Shown: positions 1,190-52,200 of the stretch, in pieces
Layout of the letters: every line of letters starts with the position of its first letter
How positions within the stretch are numbered: position 1 is the stretch's first letter
Assembly (NCBI GenBank): GCA_028702395.1
Contig: JAQVOV010000001.1
Coordinates: 3,990-67,989 of the forward strand
Direction: 5' to 3'
DNA length: 64,000 bases
DNA from: Candidatus Omnitrophota bacterium
Lineage (GTDB): Bacteria > Omnitrophota > Gorgyraeia > JABMRN01
Translations under genes and position numbers: made by a program
The notes under the pieces: generated by a model
The model's database searches: none
The model's input: the letters and a program-made list of their open reading frames with translations, nothing else
Told to the model about the DNA's origin: nothing

Positions 1190-1386
1190 TAGGAGTTCGA
1201 AACCAGAAAACAGAAGCCAGAAGCCAGAAGCCAGAAGCCAGAGAACTCTTAATACGTTTTTATCTTTAAATCAATTAATACTGGTCACTGGTCACTGGTC
1301 ACTGGTCACTGGTCACTGGTCACTGGTCACTGGTCACTGGTCACTGGTCACTGGTCACTGGTCACTAAACGATATAAGGGAGTGAA

Positions 1387-2103
1387 ATGAAAGAATACAG
1401 TATATCATTCGTGCTGCCTATGTATAACGAAGTTGCAGGCATAGCCGACACAATAGAAGAAGTCAGGATCATAGCAAAAGCATTAACAGATAATTATGAG
1501 ATAATTATTTCTGATGATGCCAGCACAGATGGTTCTTATTCAAAAGCAATGGAATATGCAAAAAAAGATGCTAATATAAAAGTGATAAAAGTTCCCAAAA
1601 ACACAAAATTCGGAGGAGCTTTAGCCAATGGATTGATAAATGCGCAAAAGGAGATCATTATTTATACAGATTCGGATCTTCCTATAAGTCTATTGGATAT
1701 AAAAAGATCTCTGCCTATGATAGAAGGTGCAGATATTGTTTCTGCTGCAAGCATTGTTCATAAAGGAGAAACGATGAAAAGGAAGATAATTTCATTTGGA
1801 TACAATGCTCTTTTAAGGATGTTTTTCGGTATGAAATTAAAAGATGTAAATTCAGGGTATAAAATTTTCAGAAAAACTGCAATTGAAGGGATGAGCTTTT
1901 TATCAAAGAGTCCTTTTATTGATGCTGAGATCTTTGTAAAAGTTTTAAGAAATGGCGGAAAGATAGTACAATACCCAATCGTGTTCAGGAACAGACGAGC
2001 AGGGGAATCAAGTATCGCCAGAATGCCTATTATAATACAAACATATTTGGATATGATGAAGTTCAGAGTTTGGTTGACTGGTAAGCCGGTAAAAAAGAGT
2101 TAA
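1387..2103 (+). CDS. Family-2 glycosyltransferase (dolichol/undecaprenyl-phosphate sugar synthase, ArnC/DPM1-like)
   Basis: N-terminus has SFVLPMYNE...IISDDASTDGS and DSDL motifs typical of GT2 polyprenyl-phosphate glycosyltransferases. SD-like GGGAG lies 8 nt upstream. Confidence 0.75.
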   Translation: MKEYSISFVLPMYNEVAGIADTIEEVRIIAKALTDNYEIIISDDASTDGSYSKAMEYAKKDANIKVIKVPKNTKFGGALANGLINAQKEIIIYTDSDLPISLLDIKRSLPMIEGADIVSAASIVHKGETMKRKIISFGYNALLRMFFGMKLKDVNSGYKIFRKTAIEGMSFLSKSPFIDAEIFVKVLRNGGKIVQYPIVFRNRRAGESSIARMPIIIQTYLDMMKFRVWLTGKPVKKS

Positions 2104-3092: not shown

Positions 3093-3557
3093 ATGACAAA
3101 CAAAAAAGAAGATAATCTTATAGTTACTAACAGAAAAGCTCGAAGGGATTATATAATAACAGAGACCTTTGAAGCGGGAATAATGCTCACAGGTACGGAA
3201 ATAAAATCCTTAAGAGCTAAAAAAGCCAGCCTAAGTGATAGCTTTGCAAGAGTTGTCAAAGGAGAGATCTTTTTGTATAACTTCCATATAGGGGCATATG
3301 AATTTGGTAATATTCATAATGTAGATCCTCTAAGAGAACGAAAACTGCTTTTACACAAAAAACAGATCCAGAAAATATTCGAAAAAAATCAAACCAAAGG
3401 TATGGCAATTGTTCCTTTGAAAGTATATCTTAAAAGAGGACTTGCGAAAGTTGAAATAGCTCTTGGCCAGGGAAAAAAGTTATACGATAAAAGAGAAACC
3501 ATAAAAAAACGACAGGCTAAAAGGGAAATAGACAGAGAAATGCGTAATAAAAAGTAG
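3093..3557 (+). CDS. smpB: SsrA-binding protein SmpB
   Basis: Full-length similarity pattern to SmpB (TNRKARRDYIITETFEAGIMLTGTEIKSLR...). Basic C-terminal tail. A tmRNA is found elsewhere in the window. Confidence 0.9.
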   Translation: MTNKKEDNLIVTNRKARRDYIITETFEAGIMLTGTEIKSLRAKKASLSDSFARVVKGEIFLYNFHIGAYEFGNIHNVDPLRERKLLLHKKQIQKIFEKNQTKGMAIVPLKVYLKRGLAKVEIALGQGKKLYDKRETIKKRQAKREIDREMRNKK

Positions 3558-5948: not shown

Positions 5949-6437
5949 GCCTTTCCACACCGTATAACTTTTCATGACGATCCTCCGCACAATAGATTTG
6001 ATATGGCTTAGAAGTCAGAGGTCAGAAGGGGCAGTTATCATTAAAAACACTGCTTATGAAAAAGATCCCTCGTAAGCGAAACACAGGTGTTTCGTAATTA
6101 CTCGGGATTGATTAAAGAACTTTTTTTATTCAAAAAAGCCTATTATTCAAAGAGGTGATCCCTCGGAAGGAAAAAGCAGTGCTTTTCCCATCTCCTAGGG
6201 ATTAATTAAAGAACTTTTTTATTAAAAAAAGTTCTTCTTAATTAAAAAAACAAGTGATACAATAAAACCATAGAAGGTTTCCCTGCTGTGTTCGCGATCG
6301 AGGTTTTGATATTTTAGCCTATACTAAAATATTGGGAGCCTAACTCTAGCGTTCTCGAGGGATCGTTAGGAGGGCACCCCCCTTAATCTAAAGGGACTAT
6401 AATATTTGATCTCTAACGGCATAAGCAGGGTTTTTTA

Positions 6438-9155: not shown

Positions 9156-9383
9156 ATGGTGAAAAAATATGTAAGCCCCACAATGAAAGCAGTCGAACTT
9201 GAACCAAAGCAAGCAATAATACAAGTTTGTGTAATTGGCGGAGTATATATGAGAAATGTTCCTCTTGCCCCTATTTGTTTTCCGGCAGGAACAGACATGA
9301 CAGGAATATGTTCTGTTTCAGTAAAAGGACAAGAAACAGGGAGCGTATCTCTTTCCCCTGTTGGTGAACTGCCAGGATCATAA
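9156..9383 (+). CDS. Small Cys-containing peptide, paralog P1 of a 7-member family (leader-peptide precursor-like)
   Basis: AAGGAG SD 8 nt upstream. N-terminus MVKKYVSPTMKAVELEPKQAIIQVCVIGG matches the family consensus. Two core Cys, VKGQ motif, C-terminus ...PGS. Confidence 0.5.
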   Translation: MVKKYVSPTMKAVELEPKQAIIQVCVIGGVYMRNVPLAPICFPAGTDMTGICSVSVKGQETGSVSLSPVGELPGS

Positions 9384-20035: not shown

Positions 20036-20205
20036 GAGGTTATTGTAGGGGCGTAATGCAATACGCCCCTACAAATAAAAAAAGACTCCACAATGAAAAC
20101 AGATTTTTTATCCGCCAAAATTTTGCAAAATTTTGGCGGGATCTCGCCACTAAAAAAAAGTGGCGGACTTTTTACTTTTGCCTTTTTACTTTGGTAAAAT
20201 AAGGA
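20036..20205. repeat. Mosaic repeat: 30-bp palindrome TGTAGGGGCGTAATGCAATACGCCCCTACA plus 'ccacaatgaaaacagattttttatccgccaaaattttgcaaaattttggcgg...cgccactaaaaaaaagtggcg' module
   Basis: Perfect palindrome at 20044..20073. Near-identical module copies at 61057..61200, 62995..63120, 34145..34240, 14700..14820. Confidence 0.85.
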
Positions 20206-21502: not shown

Positions 21503-21520
21503 AGAAGACGGATAGCACTC

Positions 21521-22045
21521 TTAAGATAAAAGAATAAAGATAAAAGATAAAAGGGTGGAATGTCCTGAGAGAAGTTTTGTAGGGGCGTATTGCAATACGC
21601 CCCTACTATCCAAAGTTTTCAGGAAGATCCTTAATCTCGTAGCCCGCTGCGCGTGGCGCGAAGCAGGTTTCCAATGAAGCTTTTGTAAATGAAAAAGACG
21701 TTCGAAGAAGAGAAAAGTATTTCAAGACAACTAAAGGAAAAAGAACGTTACGGTTAATGTTAAAAGAGACCTTAGAGAAGACGAATATCTCTCTCTTAAG
21801 ATAAAAGAATAAAGATAAAAGATAAAAGGGTGGAACGTCCCGAGAGAAGTTTTGTAGGGGCGTATTGCAATACGCCCCTACTATCCAAAGATTTCAGGAA
21901 GATCCTTAATCTCGTAGCCCGCTGCGCGTGGCGCGAAGCAGGTTTCCAATGAAGCTTTTGTAAATGAAAAAGACGTTCGAAGAAGAGAAAAGTATTTCAA
22001 GACAACTAAAGGAAAAAGAACGTTACGGTTAATGTTAAAAGAGAC
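21521..22045. repeat. Tandem duplication of a ~275-bp composite repeat unit (K-module + 30-bp palindrome + GC arm + ~100-bp tail)
   Basis: Two near-identical copies, 21521..21772 and 21797..22044, each containing gtaggggcgtattgcaatacgcccctac. Confidence 0.85.
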
Positions 22046-22149: not shown

Positions 22150-22223
22150 TGCCCGATGGTGTAATGGTAGCACAGGTGATTCTGGTTCATCTAGTCTAGG
22201 TTCGAGTCCTAGTTGGGCAACCA
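22150..22223 (+). tRNA. tRNA-Gln (anticodon CTG), ends CCA
   Basis: Acceptor stem TGCCCGA/TTGGGCA (one G-U). D-arm TGTAATGGTAGCACA. Anticodon stem GGTGA/TCATC with loop TTCTGGT. T-arm CTAGG-TTCGAGT-CCTAG. Discriminator A followed by CCA. Confidence 0.7.
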
Positions 22224-22382: not shown

Positions 22383-22631
22383 ATGACAAGAAAAAATAAA
22401 AAATATTTTAGACCTAAAGTGAAGTGTATACCATTATCTCAAGAGCAAGCTACTTTACAAGTCTGTCGTATTGGAGGAGCTTATTTTGGTTTTACAGATG
22501 CATTTCCAAGCTGGTGTTTTGGTGTTGGCACAACTCAACCAAGAGTATATGAGTGCGATGTAACGGTTAAAGGGCAATCTTTTGCTACTGATAGGGGGAA
22601 TCCAAATTCAGCGGATACGCAGCCTTCCTAA
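22383..22631 (+). CDS. Small Cys-containing peptide, paralog P2 (leader-peptide precursor-like)
   Basis: ...KVKCIPLSQEQATLQVCRIGGAYF... matches the family consensus. WC and EC core Cys, VTVKGQ motif, C-terminus ...QPS. Lies ~160 bp downstream of tRNA-Gln. Confidence 0.5.
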   Translation: MTRKNKKYFRPKVKCIPLSQEQATLQVCRIGGAYFGFTDAFPSWCFGVGTTQPRVYECDVTVKGQSFATDRGNPNSADTQPS

Positions 22632-39184: not shown

Positions 39185-39430
39185 CTAGCTTGGTGCTGCT
39201 GATTGAGCAAGATCTCCTCCAATCATCCTCATAGGGGAGTTACCCCCTGCTGCGCCTTTTGGAGTAAGTTGACATTCCATAGCAGGTGTTCCTGTTATAT
39301 TACCACAGAAGTTTACTCTCAGTGTTGTCTGATAGTATAAATATAGACCTCCAATTGCACAAATTGCTAAGATGGATTGTTCTGGGTGAAGTTGTATTGC
39401 TTTTATTTTCGGCTGTATATATTTTCTCAT
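39185..39430 (-). CDS. Small Cys-containing peptide, paralog P3 (leader-peptide precursor-like)
   Basis: MRKYIQPKIKAIQLHPEQSILAICAIGGLY... matches the family consensus. FC and EC core Cys, TPKG motif, C-terminus ...APS. Tandem with P4. Confidence 0.5.
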   Translation of the reverse strand: MRKYIQPKIKAIQLHPEQSILAICAIGGLYLYYQTTLRVNFCGNITGTPAMECQLTPKGAAGGNSPMRMIGGDLAQSAAPS

Positions 39431-39583: not shown

Positions 39584-39814
39584 TTAGCTTGGTGGCATGC
39601 TATTGGAGACAGACGTCATCATATCCATGTTTACATTTATTCCGTCTCCACCTTTTGGGGTAAAATTGCAAAGAGGACCATCTCCCGAAAACTGTCCACA
39701 CCAAGCAGAGATGGATCTGCTTACATACAAACCACCAACCTTACAAACTTGTAGAAGTGCTTGTTTTTGGTCAAGTTCAATAGAGTTTATTTTTGGCGCT
39801 GTGTATTGTTTCAT
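39584..39814 (-). CDS. Small Cys-containing peptide, paralog P4 (leader-peptide precursor-like)
   Basis: MKQYTAPKINSIELDQKQALLQVCKVGGLY... matches the family consensus. WC and LC core Cys, TPKG motif, C-terminus ...PPS. Confidence 0.5.
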   Translation of the reverse strand: MKQYTAPKINSIELDQKQALLQVCKVGGLYVSRSISAWCGQFSGDGPLCNFTPKGGDGINVNMDMMTSVSNSMPPS

Positions 39815-40150
39815 AAATAAAGTATATCAGGAGGCAAGTAAAAAGGCAAAAGGAAAAAGCAAAAAATAGTTTAACTAGTTGTTACTTGGCAAAGCGCATA
39901 TCGCGAATCGCATATCGTAAAGGGTGGGGATTTTTGCCACGAGCTGCGCGCTGCGCGCAACGCGCTAGTTGAACGTACTGAATAGGGATGAGATGCGTGT
40001 TAGAGACCAGAGACAAGAAGCAAGAGAACTATATATACGGCTTATCTTTAAATCAATTAATACTGGTCACTGGTCACTGGTCACTGGTCACTGGTCACTG
40101 GTCATTTGTTTCATATGGACTCATTGTTCCTGTTAAGCTATAATGAACCT

Positions 40151-40858
40151 ATGAACATGATATTACTTTTCCAAGAAGATTTTATTGAGCAGAACAAGGT
40201 TGTTCTTAATGACAGACGTCATAAACATATTATAGACATTCTTAGATCAAGTGTTGGACAAAAACTTTCTGTTGGATTATTGAACAATAAAATAGGGACA
40301 GGCGTTATTGTTAAGCAGACAAAAGCAGAAACAACTCTTGAAGTTATTTTAGAAAAACCTCCTGCTAAAAAATTGCCGTTAACACTCATTCTTTGCTTAT
40401 GTCGTCCTCCTGTTTTAAGACGTGTTATATATACTTGTACAATATTAGGGGTAGAAGAGCTCCATATAATAAATTCTTCCAGAGTAGAAAAAAGTTTTTG
40501 GCAATCTCATTCCTTAGAAAAACAGGAACTTGATAAAGAAATGTACCTTGGACTTGAACAATCTATAGATACTGTTTGTCCTTTAATAAATATTGAACAT
40601 TCATTCAATAAATTTACAGATGAAAAGCTAGCAAATATCATTAAAAACAAAAAAGCAATAATTGTTGATCCTGCAGCAAAAAAAACATGTCCATACAATG
40701 TTTCAGAAAGTGCTGTTATTGCAATAGGTCCTGAAGGAGGATTTCTTGTTCCTGAGGTAAAGGCATTTAAAAAACTTGGATTTAAAGATCGTAATCTTGG
40801 TTCAAGGATACAAAGAGTGGAAACCGTCATACCGTACGTAGTAGGTAGAATGTTTTGA
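40151..40858 (+). CDS. rsmE: 16S rRNA m3U1498 methyltransferase RsmE family
   Basis: C-terminal IGPEGGF...LG.RIQRVET motif. Start uncertain (40106/40151/40157). Confidence 0.7.
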   Translation: MNMILLFQEDFIEQNKVVLNDRRHKHIIDILRSSVGQKLSVGLLNNKIGTGVIVKQTKAETTLEVILEKPPAKKLPLTLILCLCRPPVLRRVIYTCTILGVEELHIINSSRVEKSFWQSHSLEKQELDKEMYLGLEQSIDTVCPLINIEHSFNKFTDEKLANIIKNKKAIIVDPAAKKTCPYNVSESAVIAIGPEGGFLVPEVKAFKKLGFKDRNLGSRIQRVETVIPYVVGRMF

Positions 40859-42040: not shown

Positions 42041-42429
42041 GGGGGTGTCCGGAATCGACTTAGACATTACAGGCTTTAAGTTGCATGTAGCGGATGTCAG
42101 TTGGCCGCTTAAAATAACTGGCAAAAACACAAACGCAAAATACGATTCAGTAGCCGAAGCAGAAGCAATTCTAGCTGAGGATGCGTTACAAGTTCCTCAA
42201 TTTGAAGGAACTGGTTCTCTAGTAAGCGCTTTGGCTTATTAATAGGACTTAATCTAACAAAGACGATTAATAGTGTTGCTGTAGCATTGTTGATCGAAAG
42301 ATTACAGCTGCTTGTACATATATCCTGTTTGCCGGAGATATGTGCAAAAAGACAAATAACAAACTAAACATGTAGATACTTTTAGTTTGATGTCCGAGGA
42401 CCGGGGTTCGAGTCCCCGCACCTCCACCA
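42041..42429 (+). ncRNA. ssrA: tmRNA (ssrA), ~389 nt
   Basis: 5' GGGGGUGUCCGGAAUCGAC pairs with the 3' end ...CACCUCC-A-CCA, including the G3:U70 Ala identity pair. 3' T-arm GGACCGGGGUUCGAGUCCCCG matches tmRNA. Internal reading frame ends ...SALAY with double stop UAA-UAG (42240..42245). smpB is present at 3093. Confidence 0.85.
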
Positions 42430-42502
42430 TATTGCATTAAAAAGAGAAGCAAACGCTTCTCTCTTTTTGTTTATGATCATTTATCGAACAAACGGGGCGA
42501 AA

Positions 42503-42685
42503 AATATAATTTCCACAATACAAAAACGAGGTCTGTCCCTAGTTCTAGTTAAACTCAATAGTGGACAGACCTCGTTTTTATAGCTTGCCTCGGGACACAC
42601 ATAGGAGAGTAATTTAACCATTGGTTATGTGTGTCCCGAGAACTCTGGGTTACCTGAGAACCTGATCCTATAGAACCAGGTTCTC
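42503..42685 (+). repeat. Three-hairpin structured repeat, copy A (upstream of P5)
   Basis: Hairpins gaggtctgtcc...ggacagacctc, ctcgggacacacata...tatgtgtgtcccgag, gagaacctg...caggttctc. ~90% identical to the copy at 43594..43790. Confidence 0.8.
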
Positions 42686-42858
42686 CATAGCTAAAACAGA
42701 GGAAAAGCCACAAGGCAAAAAAGAAAAAGTGACAAATTTAAGACCTGAACCTATGGAACCAAGTTCTTGACACCATGGTGTCTGCCCAAAAGTTGCCCAT
42801 TTAAATTCAAAACAATAAAAAACTTGAGAGAGTGTGTAGTTTATGGTATATTTATTTT

Positions 42859-43065
42859 ATGAAAAAATATATTAAGCCAAGAATAAACGCCATAGACCTT
42901 GATCCTGATCAGGCGATCCTTGCGGTGTGTCAAGTTGCCGGCGCTTATTTTTTGTTTAATGGATGTTTTAGTTCTGGAACCGGTGTTGCATGTCCCTCGG
43001 AGATCAGAGGAGTTGCCAATCAAGTAGATGTTTTAGGCAGAACAAACGATGCTATCCCTTCATAA
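42859..43065 (+). CDS. Small Cys-containing peptide, paralog P5 (leader-peptide precursor-like)
   Basis: MKKYIKPRINAIDLDPDQAILAVCQVAGAYF... matches the family consensus. GC and AC core Cys, C-terminus ...IPS. The ATG at 42859 is preferred over the upstream GTG. Confidence 0.55.
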   Translation: MKKYIKPRINAIDLDPDQAILAVCQVAGAYFLFNGCFSSGTGVACPSEIRGVANQVDVLGRTNDAIPS

Positions 43066-43319
43066 TCAATCGCTTTATATACAGCATCTCTTGTAACACC
43101 GCCCATCCCTACAGTAACCTGTTTGAACCTTGGTTTTTGGAATCAAATTTTTTAGATTTTAAGAATATCGGACTAAGTTAATTCTCTGCCCATTTAAAGT
43201 CAAAATAGTTAAAATAAGGAAAAAAATTTCAAAACAGAATAAAACATAAACCTTTTTGTTTTATCACCATTTCATTTAACCAAATTTGCTTTTAAAAAAA
43301 GATATGATATACTTAAAGC

Positions 43320-43547
43320 ATGAAAAAATATCAAAGCATGAAAATAAAGAAAGTAAAGCTTAATTCTGACCAGGCAATAATGCAAGTGTGTGCTATCGCG
43401 GGTTCAGGATGGTACTTTAATCCAGGTCCTGTACAATGGTGCAATGCAGGTACAACTGATAATATTGGAGCATTCTGTACAAGTGGAGTAAAAGGAAATC
43501 AGACATATTCGAGAGGACCGGGTCAACAACATACAATACCAAGTTAA
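43320..43547 (+). CDS. Small Cys-containing peptide, paralog P6 (leader-peptide precursor-like)
   Basis: MKKYQSMKIKKVKLNSDQAIMQVCAIAGSGWYF... matches the family consensus. WC and FC core Cys, VKGNQ motif, C-terminus ...IPS. Confidence 0.55.
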   Translation: MKKYQSMKIKKVKLNSDQAIMQVCAIAGSGWYFNPGPVQWCNAGTTDNIGAFCTSGVKGNQTYSRGPGQQHTIPS

Positions 43548-43593
43548 ATTCTTTTAAGAAATTCTAAACTTCCAATTGCAGGCGAAAATCTTG

Positions 43594-43790
43594 AAATATA
43601 ATTTCCACAATACAAAAACGAGGTCTGTCCCTAGTTCTAGTTAAACTCAGCAGTGGATAGACCTCGTTTTATAGCTTGTCTCGGGACACACATAGGGGAG
43701 AATTTTAAACATTGGTTATGTGTGTCCCGAGAACTCTGGGTTACCTGAGAACCTGGTCCTATAGAACCAGGTTCTCAGGTTTTTTCTTTT
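43594..43790 (+). repeat. Three-hairpin structured repeat, copy B (between P6 and the radical SAM gene), ending in a terminator-like T-run
   Basis: Same three hairpins as copy A. Stem 1 carries a C-to-T change that keeps pairing only as a G-U wobble (RNA-level). Hairpin 3 is followed by ggttttttctttt. Confidence 0.8.
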
Positions 43791-43865
43791 CATGAAAAAC
43801 GCGAAAATAAAGAATTTATTGCAAAGGCTATACGTGCATGGTATAATCCAAAATAGAGGTGAACT

Positions 43866-45434
43866 ATGCTAATTGCATCAAAAAAACGACACAGAATGAG
43901 ACTTGTTATTCCTGCTTTTCCTGCATTTAATATTTATTCGTATTCGTCACAACGTACAACTGCACTTGGACCGGTTTGCATTGCTACAACAGTCAATCAA
44001 ATGGAAAACTGGGACGCTGAAGTCATTGATGAGAATAATCTTCGTTTATATGGACCTAAAAGTAAGACAGGTGGTGCAGACCATGAGTTTTTACACGTTA
44101 TCAGACCTGCTGATATTGTTGGATTTTATGGGGGATTGACAAGTACCATTCCCAGACTTTATGAACTTGCAAAGTTTTACAAGAAAAGAGGAGTTATTAC
44201 TATTGCAGGAGGACAACACTTTGTTGGTGAGAATATAAAAGAAGCTTTGTATTCTGATATTGATTATGTTGTTATAGGTGAAGGAGAGGAAACGATCAGA
44301 GAACTTATAGAAGGGTTAGAAGGAAAAAGAAACATAGATGAAATAAAAGGTATTGCGTACATAAAAAATGGAAACATTATTCAGACTCCAACAAGAGAAC
44401 CTATAACTGACTTTGAGAAATTACCTTTACCTGATTTTTCATTGGTCAGGTATGCTAGAATAGAAAATTATCCGGTTGAAAGAATAAGAGGATGCGGAAT
44501 GAACTGCGAGTTCTGTACTGTCAAAGGAAGTCCAAGATGTGCCTCTGTTGAAAGATTATTTGAGAGGATAAGTTTTTTGGTTGAAACAAGAGCAGCCAAA
44601 AGATTTTTCATCATAGATGATCTTTTTGGACAGCAAAGAGAAGAAACTATAAGGTTCTGTTATATGCTTCGTGATTATCAGAAAAGGATACACAAAAGAT
44701 TGGATGTGGGTGTTCAGATAAGATTAGATAAGGCTAAGGATACAGAGATGCTTTCTGCAATGCGCCAGGCAGGTATTAACTTTGTAGCTATTGGTTTTGA
44801 ATCTCCTATCAGGGAAGAGTTAAAAGCAATGAACAAACATCTGAACCCTGAAGAAATGATAGCACTCACAAGTATTTTTAGAAAATTCGGATTTCTTATA
44901 CATGGTATGTTCATTTTTGGATATCCTGTTCAAGAAGGGGTTAATTTCAAAATGCCTATAAAGGAACGTATTAAACAGTATAAGGATTTTATCAGAAAAT
45001 GTAAGATAGACACAATACAGATCCTGTTACCAGGGCCTTTGCCTGGTACTGAATTCAGAGAAAGACTTAAAAAGAAAAACAGGCTGTATCCTCTTAAAGA
45101 TATTGGCTGGGAATATTATGACGGAAGTTTTCCGCTTTTTGAACCTGACGAACCTTTGACTGCTGAAGAACTTCAAAAAGCACAAAAAGAGATCATGGGA
45201 AATTTTTACCAATTCAAATACATGTTCATGATAGCATTTAACATTTTCTCTTTTCCCTCAATAATATTTTTTTTAAATAACATCAAAGTTGGCTGGAGAC
45301 GGTGGTATAGACCATGGCGAAATGATCTTGTCCGTTTTGGTGGCTGGATGACTATGAGAAAATGGACAACAGAATTCAAGAAAAACACTTTTCAAGAGAA
45401 ATTGAACAAGGCCAAAGAGTGTATAAGGAAATAA
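43866..45434 (+). CDS. B12-binding (class B) radical SAM enzyme
   Basis: N-terminal cobalamin-binding Rossmann-like domain (...VGFYGG...ITIAGGQH...VVIGEGE). Radical SAM core with CGMNCEFC (CxxxCxxC). Hydrophobic C-terminal segment. Confidence 0.8.
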   Translation: MLIASKKRHRMRLVIPAFPAFNIYSYSSQRTTALGPVCIATTVNQMENWDAEVIDENNLRLYGPKSKTGGADHEFLHVIRPADIVGFYGGLTSTIPRLYELAKFYKKRGVITIAGGQHFVGENIKEALYSDIDYVVIGEGEETIRELIEGLEGKRNIDEIKGIAYIKNGNIIQTPTREPITDFEKLPLPDFSLVRYARIENYPVERIRGCGMNCEFCTVKGSPRCASVERLFERISFLVETRAAKRFFIIDDLFGQQREETIRFCYMLRDYQKRIHKRLDVGVQIRLDKAKDTEMLSAMRQAGINFVAIGFESPIREELKAMNKHLNPEEMIALTSIFRKFGFLIHGMFIFGYPVQEGVNFKMPIKERIKQYKDFIRKCKIDTIQILLPGPLPGTEFRERLKKKNRLYPLKDIGWEYYDGSFPLFEPDEPLTAEELQKAQKEIMGNFYQFKYMFMIAFNIFSFPSIIFFLNNIKVGWRRWYRPWRNDLVRFGGWMTMRKWTTEFKKNTFQEKLNKAKECIRK

Positions 45435-45579
45435 AATTCCTTATCTGCTAAAAAAATTTTATATATTATCCTCCCGTTAGAAGCCTTTGATTGACCATGA
45501 ATTGCTAATGTGCTACAATCCATTTATAAAACTATTTTGAAATCGACCAATACACTTATCTTTAAAAAAACGAGAGACT

Positions 45580-46515
45580 ATGACAAAAAAAATAATATTA
45601 TGCATTATCTTTAGTTTATATGCTGCCAATTGTTTTTCCATAGAATATGATGTGAATGAATTGTTAGGCTCCTTATATAAACAAGCCCAAACAGCTATAG
45701 AAAAAGGTGATCAAGGTGAGTCGGATTTCTTTTTAGCAAGGTACTTGGGATTAGTTACAACAGAAAATACCACTAAAAACTATACTGACCTTTATCCTTT
45801 ATTTGACACACATAAGCAGTTAAATGCTTTTACTGTTATTAACGGAGAATTCCAAAAAGAATTTATAGATTGGTTCATATTCGCAGGATATTCTATGTGG
45901 GCAGGACAAACTATTATACAAACAAAAGATGGCGCTTTAGAGGTTACCAATAATTTGAATGATAATTTCTATGTAGGGGTATTTGGGTATCCTTACTTGG
46001 AAAAAGGGAGTATTGTAGGAGGAACATCTAATAGCGGTGAAGTTGTTGTTATGACTTTAATGAGAAAACCTTTTTTAGTTTTAGGAAAGATCAAGGAGAA
46101 AGAGAATCCTTTGGATAATGCAAGCGATTTTCCAATAGAAGTAAGAACAGTCATACAATATATATGGCAGCCGGAATTCTATGATATTGATAAAGATGGG
46201 GAAGATGAAATTTTTATCAGATACAATAAATCTTGGGCTACAGGATTTTCGCAAGTATTGGATATTTATAAAATAAAAGAAGATGACTTGATCTTATGGG
46301 AGAGATTTGAGGGGTTAGCAGAAGGGATAGCTATGAGGGCAGGAGATAAAATTATTGTAGGAGAAGGTTTTTCTGATACAGGTAATGGCCATATGGGTTA
46401 TGAAAAAACACACATTGAAGAATTTGAATATAAAGAGGATAAATGGATAAGGACTAAAGCGTCTGATCAACCGCATATATTATTAAATGAAGAATGGAAA
46501 ACCTTTTATTTGTAG
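45580..46515 (+). CDS. Secreted hypothetical protein (signal peptide; no recognisable domain)
   Basis: MTKKIILCIIFSLYAANCFS signal. Lies between the rSAM gene and paralog P7. Confidence 0.4.
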   Translation: MTKKIILCIIFSLYAANCFSIEYDVNELLGSLYKQAQTAIEKGDQGESDFFLARYLGLVTTENTTKNYTDLYPLFDTHKQLNAFTVINGEFQKEFIDWFIFAGYSMWAGQTIIQTKDGALEVTNNLNDNFYVGVFGYPYLEKGSIVGGTSNSGEVVVMTLMRKPFLVLGKIKEKENPLDNASDFPIEVRTVIQYIWQPEFYDIDKDGEDEIFIRYNKSWATGFSQVLDIYKIKEDDLILWERFEGLAEGIAMRAGDKIIVGEGFSDTGNGHMGYEKTHIEEFEYKEDKWIRTKASDQPHILLNEEWKTFYL

Positions 46516-46647
46516 CTAAAAATTGTCTCTTTTTTATTCTTTTGACTATGGATAAAGGGATTCTAAGATTCCCAAAGATTTATTTTATAGATAAGAATGT
46601 TTTTTTACAAGTAGAAATTTTGTGAAAATAATATACAATATATACGT

Positions 46648-46869
46648 ATGAAAAAGTACATTATCCCAAAAATAAGAGCAATTAAACTTGATCAAAAACA
46701 AGCTGTATTAGAAGTTTGTCAACTTGCAGGAGCTTATTTTGTATCAGCAGGACCGCCTTCGGATTGGTGTATGCGTTCAGGTGCAGGCGTTAATTGCGTT
46801 ATAAGCGTAAAAGGCCAGGCAAACCCCGTAGAAATAGCTTGGACACAAAGAGGCGCTCAACCTTCATAA
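46648..46869 (+). CDS. Small Cys-containing peptide, paralog P7 (leader-peptide precursor-like)
   Basis: MKKYIIPKIRAIKLDQKQAVLEVCQLAGAYF... matches the family consensus. WC and NC core Cys, ISVKGQ motif, C-terminus ...QPS. Confidence 0.55.
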   Translation: MKKYIIPKIRAIKLDQKQAVLEVCQLAGAYFVSAGPPSDWCMRSGAGVNCVISVKGQANPVEIAWTQRGAQPS

Positions 46870-50046: not shown

Positions 50047-52200
50047 ATGTCACAGCTTATAAATGCTTTATTAAAAGAAAATCTTATAACAGCAGAACAG
50101 CTCGAAGATGCTAAGGATAAGCAAATGGGAGAGAAAAAACCTATACACGAAGTATTATGCGAAATGGGTTTTGTCAAAGAAGAAGATGTTCTCAATATCT
50201 TATCAAAGGTTTTCGGGTTTCAATTGCTCGACATAAAAAAAGAGAAAATAGATCCTTCCGTCGTGAAAATGATACCTTATGATAAAGCTAAAAAATGGGG
50301 GGTTTTCCCTTTGCGTAAAGAAAATGAAAAAATAGTTGTAGCTATGAGCGACCCATTGGATGTTATAACTATAGATGAGATACGGATAATGGTAAATGCA
50401 GAAGTTAAACCTATTTTAGCTACAAAAAAAGACATAGCTAATTTGTGCGAAACACACTATCAGATGGATGAAGCAATTTACGATATTATAAAGAACATAG
50501 TTGAAGATACTACTATAAAGATCGTTGAAGAGAAAAAAGTTTCCGAAGAGTTTTTTGATGTTTCACAAATAAAAGGAGATGCTTCTCCTATAATACGATT
50601 GGTCCGTTTGATAATAGGGGATGCTATTAAAGGAAATGCCAGTGATATTCATATAGAGCCATATCAAAATTTTTTCGGAGTTCGTTACAGGATAGATGGA
50701 TATTTAAAAAAAGTAATGAAAGTACCAAGTAAACTTTTCCCTCAGGTTGTTGCCAGCATTAAAGTATTGGCAAGACTTGATATTGCCGAACATCAGAAAG
50801 CACAAGATGGGCGTGCTCAAGCAGTAGTTAAAGATCATAGTATAGATCTTAGGATCTCAATAGTCCCAGTTATTCATGGAGAGAAAGTTGTTATCAGATT
50901 GCTGGACAAAGCAACTGCACAGGTTGAATTATCAAAGCTGGGGATGGATCAAAAAGATCTGAAGGATTTCAAAGAAACCATTGCTTTGCCGCAAGGCATG
51001 ATACTTGTAACAGGACCTACCGGATCAGGAAAAACCACAACTCTTTATGCAGCATTAAATACCATTAAGAACGAAAAAGTGAATATAATAACGATCGAAG
51101 ATCCTATAGAATATCTTATGGACGGGATCACTCAGATACAGCTTAACCCTGCGAAAAATGTAACTTTTGTTACAGCTCTAAGGAATGTATTGAGACAGGA
51201 CCCTAACATTATTTTAATTGGGGAGATAAGGGATAACGAAACTGCAGACATAGCTTTCAGAGCTTCTATGACAAGGCATTTGGTTTTTTCTGCTATTCAT
51301 ACTAATAATTCAATAGCATCTATTTCAAGACTCAGAAATATAGGGTTGGAACCGTATATAATTAGTTCTTCTTTAAGTATGATAGTTGCACAAAGACTTG
51401 TTAGGGTGAACTGCCCTCATTGCAAGGAAAGTTATCAGCCGGAAGACAATCTTGTAGGGAAATTCCATTCTCTTATAGAAGCTTTTAAGATAACTGATTT
51501 TTTTAGAGGTAAAGGATGTCAAATGTGCGGATATAGCGGTTATTCAGGAAGAATAGCTATTTACGAGGTCTTAAAAATAGATGAAGAAATAAAGGAGCTT
51601 ATTAATTCAAATGCTTCTGAAGGAGAAATTTTGGTGCAAGCAAAAAAGAACGGGTTTAAGACTCTGGCTGAAAATGGCATGTTAAAAATATCCCAAGGGA
51701 TAACTACTTTAGAGGAAGTAAACAATGTACTTGAAGCTGCCGAAGAAAGAACGCCCCATGAAATAAAAAAAGGAAACCTAGTTGAAATAGAGGAAATATT
51801 CGAAGAAAATAAAAAAAATGATGATAAAAAAACAAAGATATTAACAGTTGATGATGAACCGGATATACTCAAGATCTTAAATAAAAGGCTTACAAATGCG
51901 GGATATGAAGTCATTCAAGCAAAAAACGGGAAACAGGCTATTGAAAGTGCTTTCAAGGAAAGACCGGATCTTATTATTATGGACATTATGATGCCTGAAA
52001 TGGATGGGATCGAAGCAACAAAAAGGATAAGGGCACAGCTGCAGACAGCAGCTATTCCTATAATAATGTTAACTGCTAAAAAGGATAAACAAAGTGAGCT
52101 AAAAGGTATAGATGTGGGAGCAGATGATTATATTACCAAGCCTTTTGATAATGAAAAGCTAATTGCTAGGATAGAAATGCTTTTAAGGAGAAGTCGTTAA
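50047..52200 (+). CDS. GspE/PilB-family secretion/pilus-assembly ATPase with N-terminal T2SSE_N domain and C-terminal receiver (REC) domain fusion
   Basis: T2SSE_N (MSQLINALLKENLITAEQLEDA...). Walker A GPTGSGKTT. Tetracysteine CPHC...CQMC. C-terminal KILTVDDEPD...IMDIMMP...MLTAK...YITKPF receiver. Confidence 0.85.
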   Translation: MSQLINALLKENLITAEQLEDAKDKQMGEKKPIHEVLCEMGFVKEEDVLNILSKVFGFQLLDIKKEKIDPSVVKMIPYDKAKKWGVFPLRKENEKIVVAMSDPLDVITIDEIRIMVNAEVKPILATKKDIANLCETHYQMDEAIYDIIKNIVEDTTIKIVEEKKVSEEFFDVSQIKGDASPIIRLVRLIIGDAIKGNASDIHIEPYQNFFGVRYRIDGYLKKVMKVPSKLFPQVVASIKVLARLDIAEHQKAQDGRAQAVVKDHSIDLRISIVPVIHGEKVVIRLLDKATAQVELSKLGMDQKDLKDFKETIALPQGMILVTGPTGSGKTTTLYAALNTIKNEKVNIITIEDPIEYLMDGITQIQLNPAKNVTFVTALRNVLRQDPNIILIGEIRDNETADIAFRASMTRHLVFSAIHTNNSIASISRLRNIGLEPYIISSSLSMIVAQRLVRVNCPHCKESYQPEDNLVGKFHSLIEAFKITDFFRGKGCQMCGYSGYSGRIAIYEVLKIDEEIKELINSNASEGEILVQAKKNGFKTLAENGMLKISQGITTLEEVNNVLEAAEERTPHEIKKGNLVEIEEIFEENKKNDDKKTKILTVDDEPDILKILNKRLTNAGYEVIQAKNGKQAIESAFKERPDLIIMDIMMPEMDGIEATKRIRAQLQTAAIPIIMLTAKKDKQSELKGIDVGADDYITKPFDNEKLIARIEMLLRRSR

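What the first reader, a model, noticed from the sequence alone, without database searches (positions are those of the whole stretch)
42832..46869. Candidate new leader-peptide (RiPP/bacteriocin-like) locus: three paralogous Cys-peptide genes, a B12-radical SAM enzyme and a secreted protein, immediately downstream of the tmRNA gene
P5 (42859..43065), P6 (43320..43547) and P7 (46648..46869) encode 68-75 aa peptides with no Sec signal.
- N-terminus is near-identical (MKKYIxPKIxAIxLDxxQAILxVCxIAG) and ends in a double-glycine-like GG/AG.
- Core is hypervariable and Gly-rich, with exactly two conserved Cys, a (V/T)KG(Q/N) motif and a conserved terminal ...PS.

Between P6 and P7 lie a class B (cobalamin-binding) radical SAM enzyme (CGMNCEFC) and a secreted protein of unknown function.

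A conserved 'leader', variable Cys core and adjacent rSAM maturase is the classic architecture of RiPP precursors. B12-rSAMs install C-methylations or other radical chemistry in proteusins, bottromycins and thiopeptides. I do not recognise this leader as a named family (not NHLP, Nif11, SCIFF or lasso).

No PCAT/C39 exporter is in the window, so the cleavage and export machinery is unknown. The rSAM could also be unrelated housekeeping.
Basis: partly seen in the sequence, partly recalled or inferred. Interest (0 to 1): 0.85.

Follow-up and report, generated by a model that had tools for sequence, protein, structure and literature searches.

The report
Dispersed hypervariable Cys-peptide family in Omnitrophota
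The three small genes are real, but they belong to a family of at least 27 scattered copies per genome that look like leader-plus-variable-core precursor peptides, and the neighbouring radical SAM enzyme is a phylum-wide gene that lies next to them only in this genome.

Summary
P5, P6 and P7 exist as described, and the window holds four more paralogues (P1-P4). The source is a Candidatus Omnitrophica MAG (locus tags PHQ52_) with at least 27 copies on many contigs. An exhaustive profile search finds 321 cluster representatives. Almost all are 68-84 aa and share MKKYIxPKIKAIxLDPxQAILQVCx[VI]GGxY[FLM], two further Cys, [KR]G and a C-terminal PS. No Pfam, NCBIfam or PDB family matches.

The "locus" interpretation fails. 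The B12-rSAM has more than 100 orthologue clusters at 69-74% identity across Omnitrophota. Three orthologue neighbourhoods contain no peptide gene. In seven of eight peptide loci from other contigs or genomes there is no class B rSAM; the eighth (L001) is a copy of this window. A strong terminator and a separate promoter lie between P6 and the rSAM. The 311-aa protein is an orphan.

The peptide genes are stand-alone units at the ends of housekeeping operons, mostly with leaderless-type promoters. Best reading (confidence 0.5): a new multicopy family of leader-bearing precursor peptides. The N-terminus carries a YxxPx[I/V] motif like the one RREs bind, then an amphipathic helix and GG. The core is hypervariable with a two-Cys framework. 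Processing or export genes would lie elsewhere in the genome. Whether the peptides are modified (RiPP) or only disulfide-bonded is open.

The parts
9156..9383 (+). P1, family member (75 aa, PHQ52_00080). It has a Shine-Dalgarno sequence and lies upstream of CcdA/DsbD_TM and thioredoxin-fold genes.
22383..22631 (+). P2, family member (82 aa, PHQ52_00155), 160 nt downstream of tRNA-Gln.
39185..39430 (-). P3, family member (81 aa, PHQ52_00230).
39584..39814 (-). P4, family member (76 aa, PHQ52_00235). Promoter TTGCCT-17-TATACT at 39849-39821 ends 6 nt before the ATG (leaderless-type).
42859..43065 (+). P5, family member (68 aa). Promoter TTGAGA-17-TATATT at 42824-42852 ends 6 nt before the ATG.
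43320..43547 (+). P6, family member (75 aa, PHQ52_00265). TATACT ends 6 nt before the ATG.
46648..46869 (+). P7, family member (73 aa, PHQ52_00280), with its own promoter-like sites just upstream.
42498..42687 (+). Left copy of a ~190-nt direct repeat made of three hairpins, between the tmRNA terminator and P5.
43590..43790 (+). Right copy of the ~190-nt repeat. It ends in a 15-bp-stem terminator plus T-run (43743-43780) that separates P6 from the rSAM gene.
43866..45434 (+). Class B (B12-binding) radical SAM protein with a hydrophobic C-terminal segment. Judged NOT part of the peptide system: it is a neighbour by position only.
45580..46515 (+). Orphan 311-aa protein with a hydrophobic N-terminus. 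No family, no usable model, and no link to the peptides shown.

Best explanation
P5-P7, together with P1-P4, are members of an undescribed multigene family of ~75-aa peptides. The family is confined to a small clade of Omnitrophota, with at least 27 copies in this MAG.

Each gene is a stand-alone transcription unit inserted between housekeeping genes. Most have a sigma-70-type -10 box ending 6-8 nt before the ATG and no Shine-Dalgarno sequence (inferred leaderless mRNA).

The product is bipartite.
- Residues 1 to about 28-32 form a recognition (leader) segment under strong purifying selection. It has an extended YxxPx[I/V] stretch like the one RiPP recognition elements bind, then an amphipathic helix (DxxQAILQVC), then [VI]-[G/A/S]-G.
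- The rest is a G/S/T/A-rich segment, close to random in sequence. Only two Cys 9-17 residues apart, a [KR]G four residues after the second Cys and a C-terminal Pro-Ser are kept.

Inferred mechanism:
- A common partner encoded elsewhere in the genome binds the shared leader. Candidates are an RRE-containing maturase, a GG-specific peptidase-exporter, or both.
- The leader is removed at or near GG.
- The variable two-Cys core is released as a disulfide- or thioether-bridged peptide.
- The result would be a combinatorial library in the manner of prochlorosins, Nif11/NHLP peptides or class II microcins.

The adjacent B12-radical SAM enzyme and the 311-aa protein are not part of this system.

Shown: the family, its copy number, dispersal, conservation pattern and coding status, and the lack of a conserved rSAM linkage. 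Inferred: the leader function, the cleavage, the export and any modification.
For: Family and copy number:
- Seven copies in the window.
- 26 distinct PHQ52_ locus tags plus P5.
- 321 representatives in the exhaustive profile search, 172 of them at E<=1e-10.

Bipartite conservation:
- Y4, P7, L14, Q18, A19, C24, G28, C41, C50 and S73 are invariant or at least 90% conserved across 150 sequences.
- Leader pairwise identity is 49-55%. Core identity is 26-27%, against 21% for shuffled cores.
- Codon-position entropy is 0.73 / 0.49 / 1.21, so the N-terminus is conserved at the protein level.

Not a globular domain: AlphaFold2 on the 27-sequence alignment gives mean pLDDT 55 and pTM 0.19. There is no PDB hit at E<=10.

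Leader-like motifs:
- Y-x-x-P-x-[I/V] matches the [Y/W]xxPx[L/V/I/F/A] motif bound by RREs in lasso and LPP precursors. LPP precursors likewise have conserved N-termini and variable C-termini (PMC13381572).
- The G/A/S-G pair at the end of the conserved helix uses the same residue set as double-glycine leaders (the residue set is from established knowledge).

Core composition is typical of secreted peptides or RiPP cores: 44% G+T+S+A, about 11% charged residues, median net charge 0.

Stand-alone genes at the ends of housekeeping operons, in tandem arrays of 2-5.

Leaderless-type promoters in 11 of 15 peptide genes against 5 of 50 long genes.

rSAM exclusion.
Against: - No maturase, RRE (PqqD-like), C39/PCAT, LanM/LanB, YcaO or SPASM gene lies next to any copy in about 150 kb of peptide-bearing sequence (window plus L002, L003, L017-L019, L021, L027, L028). 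The leader function is therefore inferred from sequence pattern alone.
- The hydrophobic register before GG is -3, -6 and -9/-10. The canonical register for PCAT substrates is -4, -7 and -12.
- Conservation continues three residues past GG (x-[YFW]-[FLMI]), and the 'leader' contains an invariant Cys. Both are unusual for a discarded leader.
- The strictly conserved C-terminal Pro-Ser is unexplained.
- AlphaFold's failure on a shallow alignment of a small disulfide peptide does not prove disorder.
- The rest of the genome could not be examined.
Confidence: 0.5

Rival explanations
1. First reader's model. P5-P7, the class B radical SAM enzyme and the 311-aa secreted protein form one RiPP gene cluster. 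The B12-rSAM methylates or crosslinks the peptide cores.
For: - Three of the seven window copies lie within 1.3 kb of the rSAM gene.
- Class B rSAMs do modify RiPPs (NCBIfam TIGR03975, ApyD). Weak sub-threshold similarity to those models exists: 61 and 69 bits.
Against: - rSAM orthologues at 69-74% identity are found throughout Omnitrophota.
- Three orthologue loci lack any peptide and share no neighbour with the window.
- Seven of eight other peptide loci lack a class B rSAM; the eighth is a copy of this window.
- At least 20 further copies lie on other contigs of the same MAG.
- A terminator and a separate promoter lie between P6 and the rSAM.
- Scores are 61 against a cut-off of 282, and 69 against 750. 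The best hits are HpnJ, MCR Gln-methyltransferase and BchE.
- The rSAM has a hydrophobic C-terminal segment, which suggests a membrane-associated role.
Confidence: 0.06
2. The peptides are unmodified small structural or surface proteins. Examples would be subunits of an appendage or coat, or adhesins or effectors used by these host-dependent nanobacteria. The conserved N-terminus would be an assembly, docking or non-classical export handle that stays on the mature protein. The variable, disulfide-looped C-terminus would be the exposed part under diversifying selection.
For: - A conserved N-terminus plus a variable C-terminal disulfide loop is also the pilin design principle (established knowledge).
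- Conservation runs past the GG, and the conserved part contains an invariant Cys.
- There are many paralogues.
- The core is G/S/T/A/P/N-rich and contains aromatic residues.
- Type II/IV-type secretion and pilus genes are common in Omnitrophota.
Against: - There is no hydrophobic N-terminal helix, no G|F or G|xxxxEY prepilin motif, and no Sec or lipoprotein signal.
- No confident fold is predicted.
- No assembly genes are adjacent.
- No solved-structure relative exists.
Confidence: 0.2
3. The peptides are cytoplasmic small proteins, for example thiol/redox or metal-binding proteins using the three conserved Cys, or regulators. The conserved N-terminus would bind a common cellular partner.
For: - Three invariant Cys.
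- No export signal.
- Housekeeping neighbours, including flavodoxin/FMN-reductase-like genes in L028 and CcdA/thioredoxin-fold genes next to P1.
Against: - A near-random core across paralogues and 27 or more copies per genome are hard to reconcile with a conserved intracellular function.
- The low-charge, Gly/Ser/Thr-rich composition is atypical of cytoplasmic folded proteins.
- No fold is predicted.
Confidence: 0.12
4. The genes are cargo of, or are spread by, a repeat-mediated mobile or recombination process, and confer little on the cell. Their dispersal next to tRNA, tmRNA, IS110 and hairpin repeats would then reflect insertion hot spots and not function.
For: - P2 follows tRNA-Gln and P5-P6 follow the tmRNA.
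- P3 and P4 lie next to an IS110 transposase.
- P5-P6 are bracketed by a 190-nt direct repeat.
- The same hairpin type follows three copies in L002.
- One copy, together with a 214-aa membrane-protein gene, lies between miaA and hflX in L021. Those two genes are adjacent in L004.
Against: - Strong purifying selection on the N-terminus, the Cys framework and the C-terminus across 150 or more sequences shows the product is functional.
- Each copy has its own promoter.
- No integrase or transposase is consistently linked.
- Absent from viral contigs.
Confidence: 0.05

Closest known systems
Prochlorosin / Nif11- and NHLP-type precursor families (many dispersed precursors, one remote promiscuous maturase, GG cleavage)
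   Same: - Dozens of paralogous precursor-like genes are scattered through one genome.
- The N-terminus is strongly conserved and the C-terminus is hypervariable and Cys-containing.
- G-G/A-G ends the conserved part.
- No maturase lies next to most copies.
   Different: - The leader is unrelated: no NCBIfam Nif11 or NHLP hit. At ~28 aa it is much shorter than the ~65-80 aa of those leaders.
- The two-Cys spacing is fixed, and [KR]G and the C-terminal Pro-Ser are conserved.
- The leader contains an invariant Cys.
- No LanM or other maturase has been identified.
- The phylum is Omnitrophota.
RRE-dependent RiPP leaders with the [Y/W]xxPx[L/V/I/F/A] motif (lasso peptides; linear polyphosphorylated peptides, PMC13381572)
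   Same: - The near-invariant Y4-x-x-P7-x-[I/V]9 at the N-terminus fits the motif.
- As in LPP precursors, the N-terminus is conserved and the C-terminus is variable.
   Different: - No PqqD-like RRE, lasso B/C enzymes or LPP kinase genes were found near any copy.
- There is no penultimate Thr in the leader and no macrolactam acceptor pattern.
- NCBIfam gives only one stray sub-threshold lasso hit (burhizin, E 0.13, 1 of 27 members).
Double-glycine-leader bacteriocins / class II microcins exported by C39-peptidase ABC transporters (PCATs)
   Same: - A short N-terminal leader with an amphipathic helix ends in G/A/S-G.
- The mature part is Gly/Ser-rich, about 45 aa, with one potential disulfide.
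- The C-terminal Ser recalls class IIb microcins.
   Different: - The hydrophobic register is shifted by one (-3/-6 instead of -4/-7).
- No PCAT, membrane fusion protein or immunity gene is adjacent.
- 27 or more copies per genome is far beyond typical bacteriocin loci.
- Conservation extends past GG.
Class B (cobalamin) radical SAM RiPP methyltransferases (TIGR03975 rSAM_ocin_1, ApyD, PoyC-type)
   Same: The window's enzyme has the B12-binding domain, the radical SAM core and CX3CX2C.
   Different: - It scores 61 bits against a cut-off of 282, and 69 against 750.
- It belongs to a phylum-wide Omnitrophota orthogroup with no conserved peptide neighbour.
- It has a hydrophobic C-terminal segment.
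- Its closest models are HpnJ, MCR Gln C-methyltransferase and BchE, all far below cut-off.

Membership tests
RiPP gene cluster with a class B radical SAM maturase | The rSAM reaches the curated score of a RiPP-rSAM family (TIGR03975, ApyD NF050148). | tested here: not met
   61.3 bits against 281.85, and 69 bits against 750.
RiPP gene cluster with a class B radical SAM maturase | Maturase and precursor genes are co-located across genomes. | tested here: not met
   No peptide lies within +/-10 kb of three rSAM orthologues. Of eight peptide loci from other contigs or genomes, only L001, a copy of this window, has a class B rSAM.
RiPP gene cluster with a class B radical SAM maturase | Maturase and precursor share a phyletic distribution. 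| tested here: not met
   The rSAM has more than 100 clusters at 69-74% identity across Omnitrophota. The peptide family has 321 representatives at 27 or more copies per genome, and only one GTDB representative genome was hit. Genome-by-genome profiling was not possible.
RiPP gene cluster with a class B radical SAM maturase | Co-transcription, or at least no insulating signals between precursor and maturase. | tested here: not met
   A terminator at 43743-43780 with a T-run, and a separate promoter at 43819-43847. These are consensus scans, so the point is inferred.
RRE-dependent RiPP precursor (lasso / LPP-type leader) | The leader carries the [Y/W]xxPx[L/V/I/F/A] motif. | tested here: met
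   Y4 and P7 are at least 90% conserved and position 9 is mostly I/V, over 150 sequences. The motif definition comes from PMC13381572.
RRE-dependent RiPP precursor (lasso / LPP-type leader) | A PqqD-like RRE domain protein is encoded nearby or in the genome. | tested here: inconclusive
   None was found in the window or in the peptide loci by Pfam.
Lasso peptide precursor | Penultimate Thr in the leader, an N-terminal G/A/S/C core residue with a D/E at core position 7-9, and B and C enzymes. | tested here: not met
   No conserved Thr at -2 and no conserved acidic position. No Asn-synthase-like or transglutaminase-like neighbour. Only one sub-threshold NCBIfam lasso hit.
Double-glycine leader peptide (PCAT substrate) | G-G, G-A or G-S ends the leader. 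| tested here: met
   Position C+4 is G in 143 of 157 members, and C+3 is G/A/S in 139 of 157.
Double-glycine leader peptide (PCAT substrate) | Hydrophobic residues at -4, -7 and -12, and an acidic residue at -8. | tested here: inconclusive
   Hydrophobic residues lie at -3, -6, -8/-9 and -15. An amphipathic helix is plausible, but the register is shifted by one.
Double-glycine leader peptide (PCAT substrate) | A C39-peptidase ABC transporter is in the locus or the genome. | tested here: inconclusive
   None was found in the 64-kb window or in the other peptide loci. The whole genome could not be tested with these tools.
Nif11 / NHLP (prochlorosin-type) precursor families | The leader is homologous to Nif11 or the nitrile hydratase alpha subunit. 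| tested here: not met
   No NCBIfam or Pfam hit for 27 members, even at E<=10.
Nif11 / NHLP (prochlorosin-type) precursor families | Many dispersed paralogues with a conserved leader and a hypervariable core. | tested here: met
   At least 27 copies. Leader identity is 49-55% and core identity is 26-27%.
Type IV / Flp pilins | A short basic leader ending in Gly, followed by a ~20-residue hydrophobic helix (G|FTLxE or G|xxxxEY). | tested here: not met
   No hydrophobic N-terminal helix. The median best 12-residue hydropathy window is 1.5 and lies at residues ~19-32.
Sec or lipoprotein signal peptide | An N-terminal n-h-c signal, or a lipobox [LVI][ASTVI][GAS]C. | tested here: not met
   The first 18 residues are polar and charged, with D/E present. 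'LQVC' is not a lipobox.

The most novel reading that the evidence does not exclude
A small clade of ultra-small, probably host-dependent Omnitrophota runs a prochlorosin-like combinatorial peptide system. A single remote, promiscuous RRE-type maturase, exporter or both would recognise a new 28-aa YxxP...GG leader. It would convert at least 27 leaderless-mRNA-encoded, hypervariable two-Cys cores per genome into a library of bridged secreted peptides, used against or on host or prey cells. This would be a new RiPP or bacteriocin class in an uncultured phylum.
Probability: 0.3. Interest if true: 0.8.

Novelty: new member of a known kind. Interest (0 to 1): 0.55.

Why it matters
If these are leader-bearing precursors, they define a new leader family and a large substrate library in a phylum with no cultured RiPP chemistry. 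They would also give genome miners a handle for finding the still-unknown maturase or exporter: the leader profile, YxxPx[I/V]...QAILQVCx[VI]GG. For Omnitrophota biology, a family with 27 or more hypervariable, strongly promoted copies is a candidate for host or prey interaction factors. The negative result matters too. Adjacency to a radical SAM gene in one genome is not evidence of a RiPP cluster. This B12-rSAM is a conserved Omnitrophota gene of unknown, possibly membrane-associated, function and deserves study in its own right.

Tried and rejected
1. Pfam and NCBIfam on all seven peptides, and NCBIfam on 27 members at E<=10, gave only scattered chance hits. The PDB profile search gave nothing.
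2. Genome-contig scan with the leader alignment: 47 pattern matches, none confirmed. A designed degenerate DNA pattern found one real genome, Omnitrophota STF1_137, and five chance hits.
3. Metagenome-contig scan: it returned only a different 61-aa human-gut peptide that shares the N-terminal motif.
4. Viral-contig scan: nothing.
5. The look-up of encoding contigs for window proteins returned only a 3.8-kb Logan contig. The NCBI MAG itself is not indexed, so the other PHQ52 contigs could not be read.
6. Search for a recurrent partner gene, none of which recurs:
   - PMT_2 glycosyltransferases appear near both peptides and rSAM orthologues, but they are simply common in these genomes.
   - The HExxH membrane protein next to the L002 array has a sub-threshold Peptidase_M50B match (E 0.011) and no homologue elsewhere.
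   - A 115-aa plus 79-aa gene pair occurs only in L002 and L028.
7. The 717-aa ORF as a PCAT: rejected. It is an MshEN-T2SSE-REC ATPase.
8. The hairpin CGGGACA...TGTGTCCCG as a peptide-specific RNA element. It is unresolved:
   - It brackets P5-P6 and follows three L002 copies.
   - The genome is full of other intergenic hairpin repeats.
   - There is no Rfam match.
9. AlphaFold2 of the 311-aa protein from a single sequence gave pLDDT 36, which is unusable, so no fold search was run.
10. A DGR-type template/variable repeat pair: the only intra-window repeat among the peptide genes is the leader-coding segment itself (family D13).

Full report
**1. The observation**

P5 is 42859-43065, P6 is 43320-43547 and P7 is 46648-46869, all on the + strand. 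A tblastn and a profile-HMM scan of the six-frame translation find exactly seven paralogues in the 64-kb window, with E values of 1e-23 to 1e-26. The other four are P1 9156-9383+, P2 22383-22631+, P3 39185-39430- and P4 39584-39814-.

- a shared N-terminus, MKKYxxPKIxAIxLxxxQAILQVCx[IV]GG;
- a variable middle with two invariant Cys;
- a [VTI][KR]G motif;
- a terminal Pro-Ser.

ARAGORN and Rfam place the tmRNA at 42041-42429. The 522-aa enzyme at 43866-45434 has the B12-binding and radical SAM Pfam domains and a CX3CX2C motif. The 311-aa ORF at 45580-46515 has a hydrophobic N-terminus and no family match. I annotated essentially every ORF of 100 aa or more in the window with Pfam. There is no C39/PCAT transporter, LanM/LanB, YcaO, SPASM enzyme or PqqD-like RRE.

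**2. What the peptides are**

*Source and copy number.* The window comes from a Candidatus Omnitrophica MAG (locus tags PHQ52_). Two homology searches return 26 distinct PHQ52_ tags on many contigs. With P5 that makes at least 27 copies in one genome. One 1.8-kb contig of the same organism holds four copies in tandem.

*Family size.* An exhaustive HMMER search of 1.84 billion cluster representatives finds 321 members at E<=1e-3, 172 of them at E<=1e-10. Nearly all are 68-84 aa.

*Conservation pattern.*
- Across 150 sequences, Y4, P7, L14, Q18, A19, C24, G28, C41, C50 and S73 are invariant or at least 90% conserved.
- Of 151 members, 138 have exactly two Cys after the N-terminal one, spaced 9-17 residues apart.
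- 150 of 151 end in Ser, and 112 end in PS.
- Pairwise identity is 49-55% in the N-terminal segment and 26-27% in the remainder. Shuffled cores give 21%.
- Third codon positions are the most variable: entropy 1.21 against 0.73 and 0.49. The N-terminus is therefore conserved by selection on the protein, not on the DNA or RNA.

*No known relatives and no predicted fold.* No Pfam, NCBIfam or PDB family matches, even at permissive thresholds. AlphaFold2 with the family alignment predicts no fold (pLDDT 55, pTM 0.19). There is no N-terminal Sec-type hydrophobic region, no lipobox and no pilin-type helix.

*Literature.* I found no description of this family in the Omnitrophota papers held in the library.

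**3. Genomic setting**

The genes are stand-alone units between housekeeping genes.

In the window:
- P1 lies after a ThiI/NFACT-like gene and before CcdA and thioredoxin-fold genes.
- P2 lies 160 nt after tRNA-Gln.
- P3 and P4 lie between an IS110 transposase and rsmE.
- P5 and P6 lie after the tmRNA.
- P7 lies before a two-component and PilB-like signalling block.

In other contigs and genomes they follow:
- the rpoA-rplQ operon (L017);
- sites between a SpoU methylase and serS (L002, five in tandem);
- sites between leuA and aroE (L003);
- a site next to pheST (L018);
- sites among flavodoxin-like genes (L028);
- a site between miaA and hflX (L021), two genes that are adjacent in L004.

No neighbour recurs.

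Eleven of 15 copies examined have a -10-like TAnnnT ending 5-9 nt before the ATG and no Shine-Dalgarno sequence. Only 5 of 50 long genes show this arrangement. For P4 and P5 the promoter scan finds full -35/-10 pairs ending 6 nt before the ATG. I infer that most copies are expressed as leaderless mRNAs.

**4. The radical SAM link**

- *Breadth of the rSAM.* The 120 clusters listed for it all have 69-74% identity (one exact match aside) over 97-100% of the length. The named ones are nearly all Omnitrophota. That is the signature of a phylum-wide orthogroup.
- *Narrowness of the peptide family.* 321 representatives at 27 or more mostly unclusterable copies per genome implies tens of genomes. A degenerate DNA pattern covering about 25% of copies hit a single GTDB representative genome among 185,579.
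- *rSAM orthologue neighbourhoods.* Three of them (L004, L005, L006; +/-10 kb where the contig allows) share no gene with the window and contain no family member.
- *Peptide loci elsewhere.* No class B rSAM is found in any peptide locus other than L001, which is a copy of this window.
- *Transcription signals.* Within the window, a 15-bp-stem hairpin with a T-run (43743-43780) and a TTGCAA-17-TATAAT promoter (43819-43847) separate P6 from the rSAM gene.
- *Family scores.* The enzyme scores far below every curated RiPP-rSAM cut-off. Its weak best hits are HpnJ, the MCR glutamine C-methyltransferase and BchE.
- *Membrane segment.* It has a hydrophobic C-terminal segment.
- *The 311-aa protein.* Among all loci examined it occurs only in this organism. 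Its single-sequence model is unusable.

**5. Most likely mechanism**

The bipartite conservation, the absence of a predicted fold and the low-charge Gly/Ser/Thr/Ala-rich variable part fit a precursor with a recognition leader and a variable core. Two sequence features support this.

- The near-invariant Y4-x-x-P7-x-[I/V]9 fits the [Y/W]xxPx[L/V/I/F/A] motif. That motif binds as an added strand to RiPP recognition elements in lasso peptide pathways and in the recently described LPP pathways. LPP precursors also have conserved N-termini and variable C-termini (PMC13381572).
- The conserved segment ends in an amphipathic stretch followed by [VI]-[G/A/S]-G, the residue set of double-glycine leaders (established knowledge).

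I therefore propose the following. A partner encoded elsewhere binds the shared leader. The leader is removed near GG. The two-Cys core is released as a bridged peptide. This would work like the prochlorosin and Nif11/NHLP systems, where many dispersed precursors are served by one remote enzyme.

All of this step is inferred. The points against it are:
- the shifted hydrophobic register (-3/-6 instead of -4/-7);
- conservation three residues beyond GG;
- an invariant Cys inside the 'leader';
- the unexplained C-terminal Pro-Ser;
- the absence of any identified partner.

Confidence is 0.5 that the peptides are leader-bearing processed precursors, about 0.3 that they are true RiPPs, and about 0.9 that the adjacent rSAM is not their dedicated maturase.

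**6. Rivals**

- A local rSAM-dependent RiPP cluster: 0.06.
- Unprocessed small surface or structural proteins with a conserved assembly handle: 0.2.
- Cytoplasmic thiol or metal proteins: 0.12.
- Mere cargo of repeat-mediated insertion: 0.05.

The last has some basis. Copies lie next to tRNA, tmRNA and IS110, and P5-P6 are bracketed by a 190-nt three-hairpin direct repeat. The same hairpin type follows three copies in L002. However, the selection pattern shows the product is functional, so mobility can only be an addition.

**7. Comparison and novelty**

In how it would work, the closest known systems are the prochlorosin/Nif11/NHLP multicopy precursor families and double-glycine bacteriocins or microcins, with an RRE-type leader motif. 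In membership it belongs to none of them. The leader has no detectable homology to any curated family, and the defining accessory genes were not found (see the membership table).

I rate it a new member of a known kind: a leader-bearing multicopy precursor family. The proposed biosynthetic locus is not real as a unit.

Interest is 0.55. It is still substantial, because this is a large, undescribed, hypervariable peptide family in an uncultured, host-dependent phylum.

Noticed in passing
window 1206-1389, 36516-36741, 38833-39072, 40002-40171 (heptamer arrays); 12 copies of GATAAAAG..GGGTGGAAGGTCC; 10 copies of GCCACGAGCTGCGCGCTACGCGCAACGCG; hairpin GTAGGGGCGTATTGCAATACGCCCCTAC at 20043, 21579, 21854, 34144 and 61054: Intergenic regions are packed with several families of short modular repeats. 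These include ACTAGTC/ACTGGTC heptamer tandem arrays, A-rich 'GATAAAAG' modules, GC-rich modules and conserved hairpins. They occur in varying combinations between almost all operons.
   Followed up: partly
window 42498-42687 and 43590-43790; L002 8626-8673, 9135-9182, 10268-10315: A ~190-nt three-hairpin direct repeat brackets P5-P6. Its middle hairpin (CGGGACA...TGTGTCCCG, 14-bp stem) recurs 16-50 nt downstream of three peptide genes in another genome, with compensatory changes in the distal stem. There is no Rfam match. It could be a terminator, a stabiliser or a recombination site.
   Followed up: partly
window 39821-39849(-), 42824-42852, 43308-43313, 46612-46639; L002 and L003 peptide upstream regions: Most peptide genes have a -10 box ending 5-9 nt before the ATG and no Shine-Dalgarno sequence (11 of 15, against 5 of 50 long genes). 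This suggests leaderless mRNAs.
   Followed up: partly
L007-L016 (human-gut metagenome contigs), e.g. L008 10001-10186: A 61-aa peptide, MKKYIQPSIEVIKLQTEDAILTGSG..., shares the YxxPxI...AIL N-terminal motif (HMM E ~2e-6) but has a different, acidic, Trp/Ser-rich tail with no Cys. It follows a 779-aa protein with no Pfam domain, inside an island with a TOTE-type AEP-helicase-PLD protein and an integrase.
   Followed up: partly
L021 5838-6044: A divergent 68-aa relative, ...TRVKLSPEQAVLSCCDFG...SVSS (HMM E 2e-4), lies 2 kb from a canonical family member in Omnitrophota STF1_137. This hints at a wider superfamily sharing the KLxPEQAVLxxC segment.
   Followed up: no
L002 10767-11426(-): A 219-aa polytopic membrane protein with an HESIH motif and a sub-threshold Peptidase_M50B match (E 0.011) lies directly after the five-gene peptide array. 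No homologue is present in the window or in the other loci.
   Followed up: partly
L002 6742-7554(-) and L028 1951-2695(+): A conserved pair of small genes (115/107 aa and 79/78 aa, 64% and 88% identical) lies next to the peptide arrays in two genomes, in different orientations. Neither has a Pfam match.
   Followed up: partly
window 21518-21770 and 21793-22045: A 253-nt tandem duplication at 99% identity lies just upstream of tRNA-Gln (22150-22223).
   Followed up: no
window 31312-31974 and 32058-32648: The glycine cleavage P-protein subunit 1 (GcvPA) is split into two ORFs that cover Pfam GDC-P positions 2-195 and 248-427. This could be a frameshift, an insertion or an assembly error.
   Followed up: no
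window 50047-52200: A PilB/MshE-type ATPase (MshEN + T2SSE) is fused to a C-terminal response-regulator receiver domain. It is embedded in a block of histidine kinases and single-domain response regulators (47.6-58 kb).
   Followed up: no
window 6277-6435; 3093-3557; 37463-38533: A 6S RNA gene (Rfam, 65.5 bits); SmpB, about 39 kb away from the tmRNA gene; and an IS110-family transposase next to P3/P4.
   Followed up: no
window 43866-45434 and orthologues P0161-P0279: The B12-radical SAM protein is a strongly conserved Omnitrophota-wide orthogroup (about 70% identity) with no curated family, a hydrophobic C-terminal segment and no conserved gene neighbourhood. Its function is unknown. The closest solved relative is 9ccb (62 bits).
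   Followed up: partly
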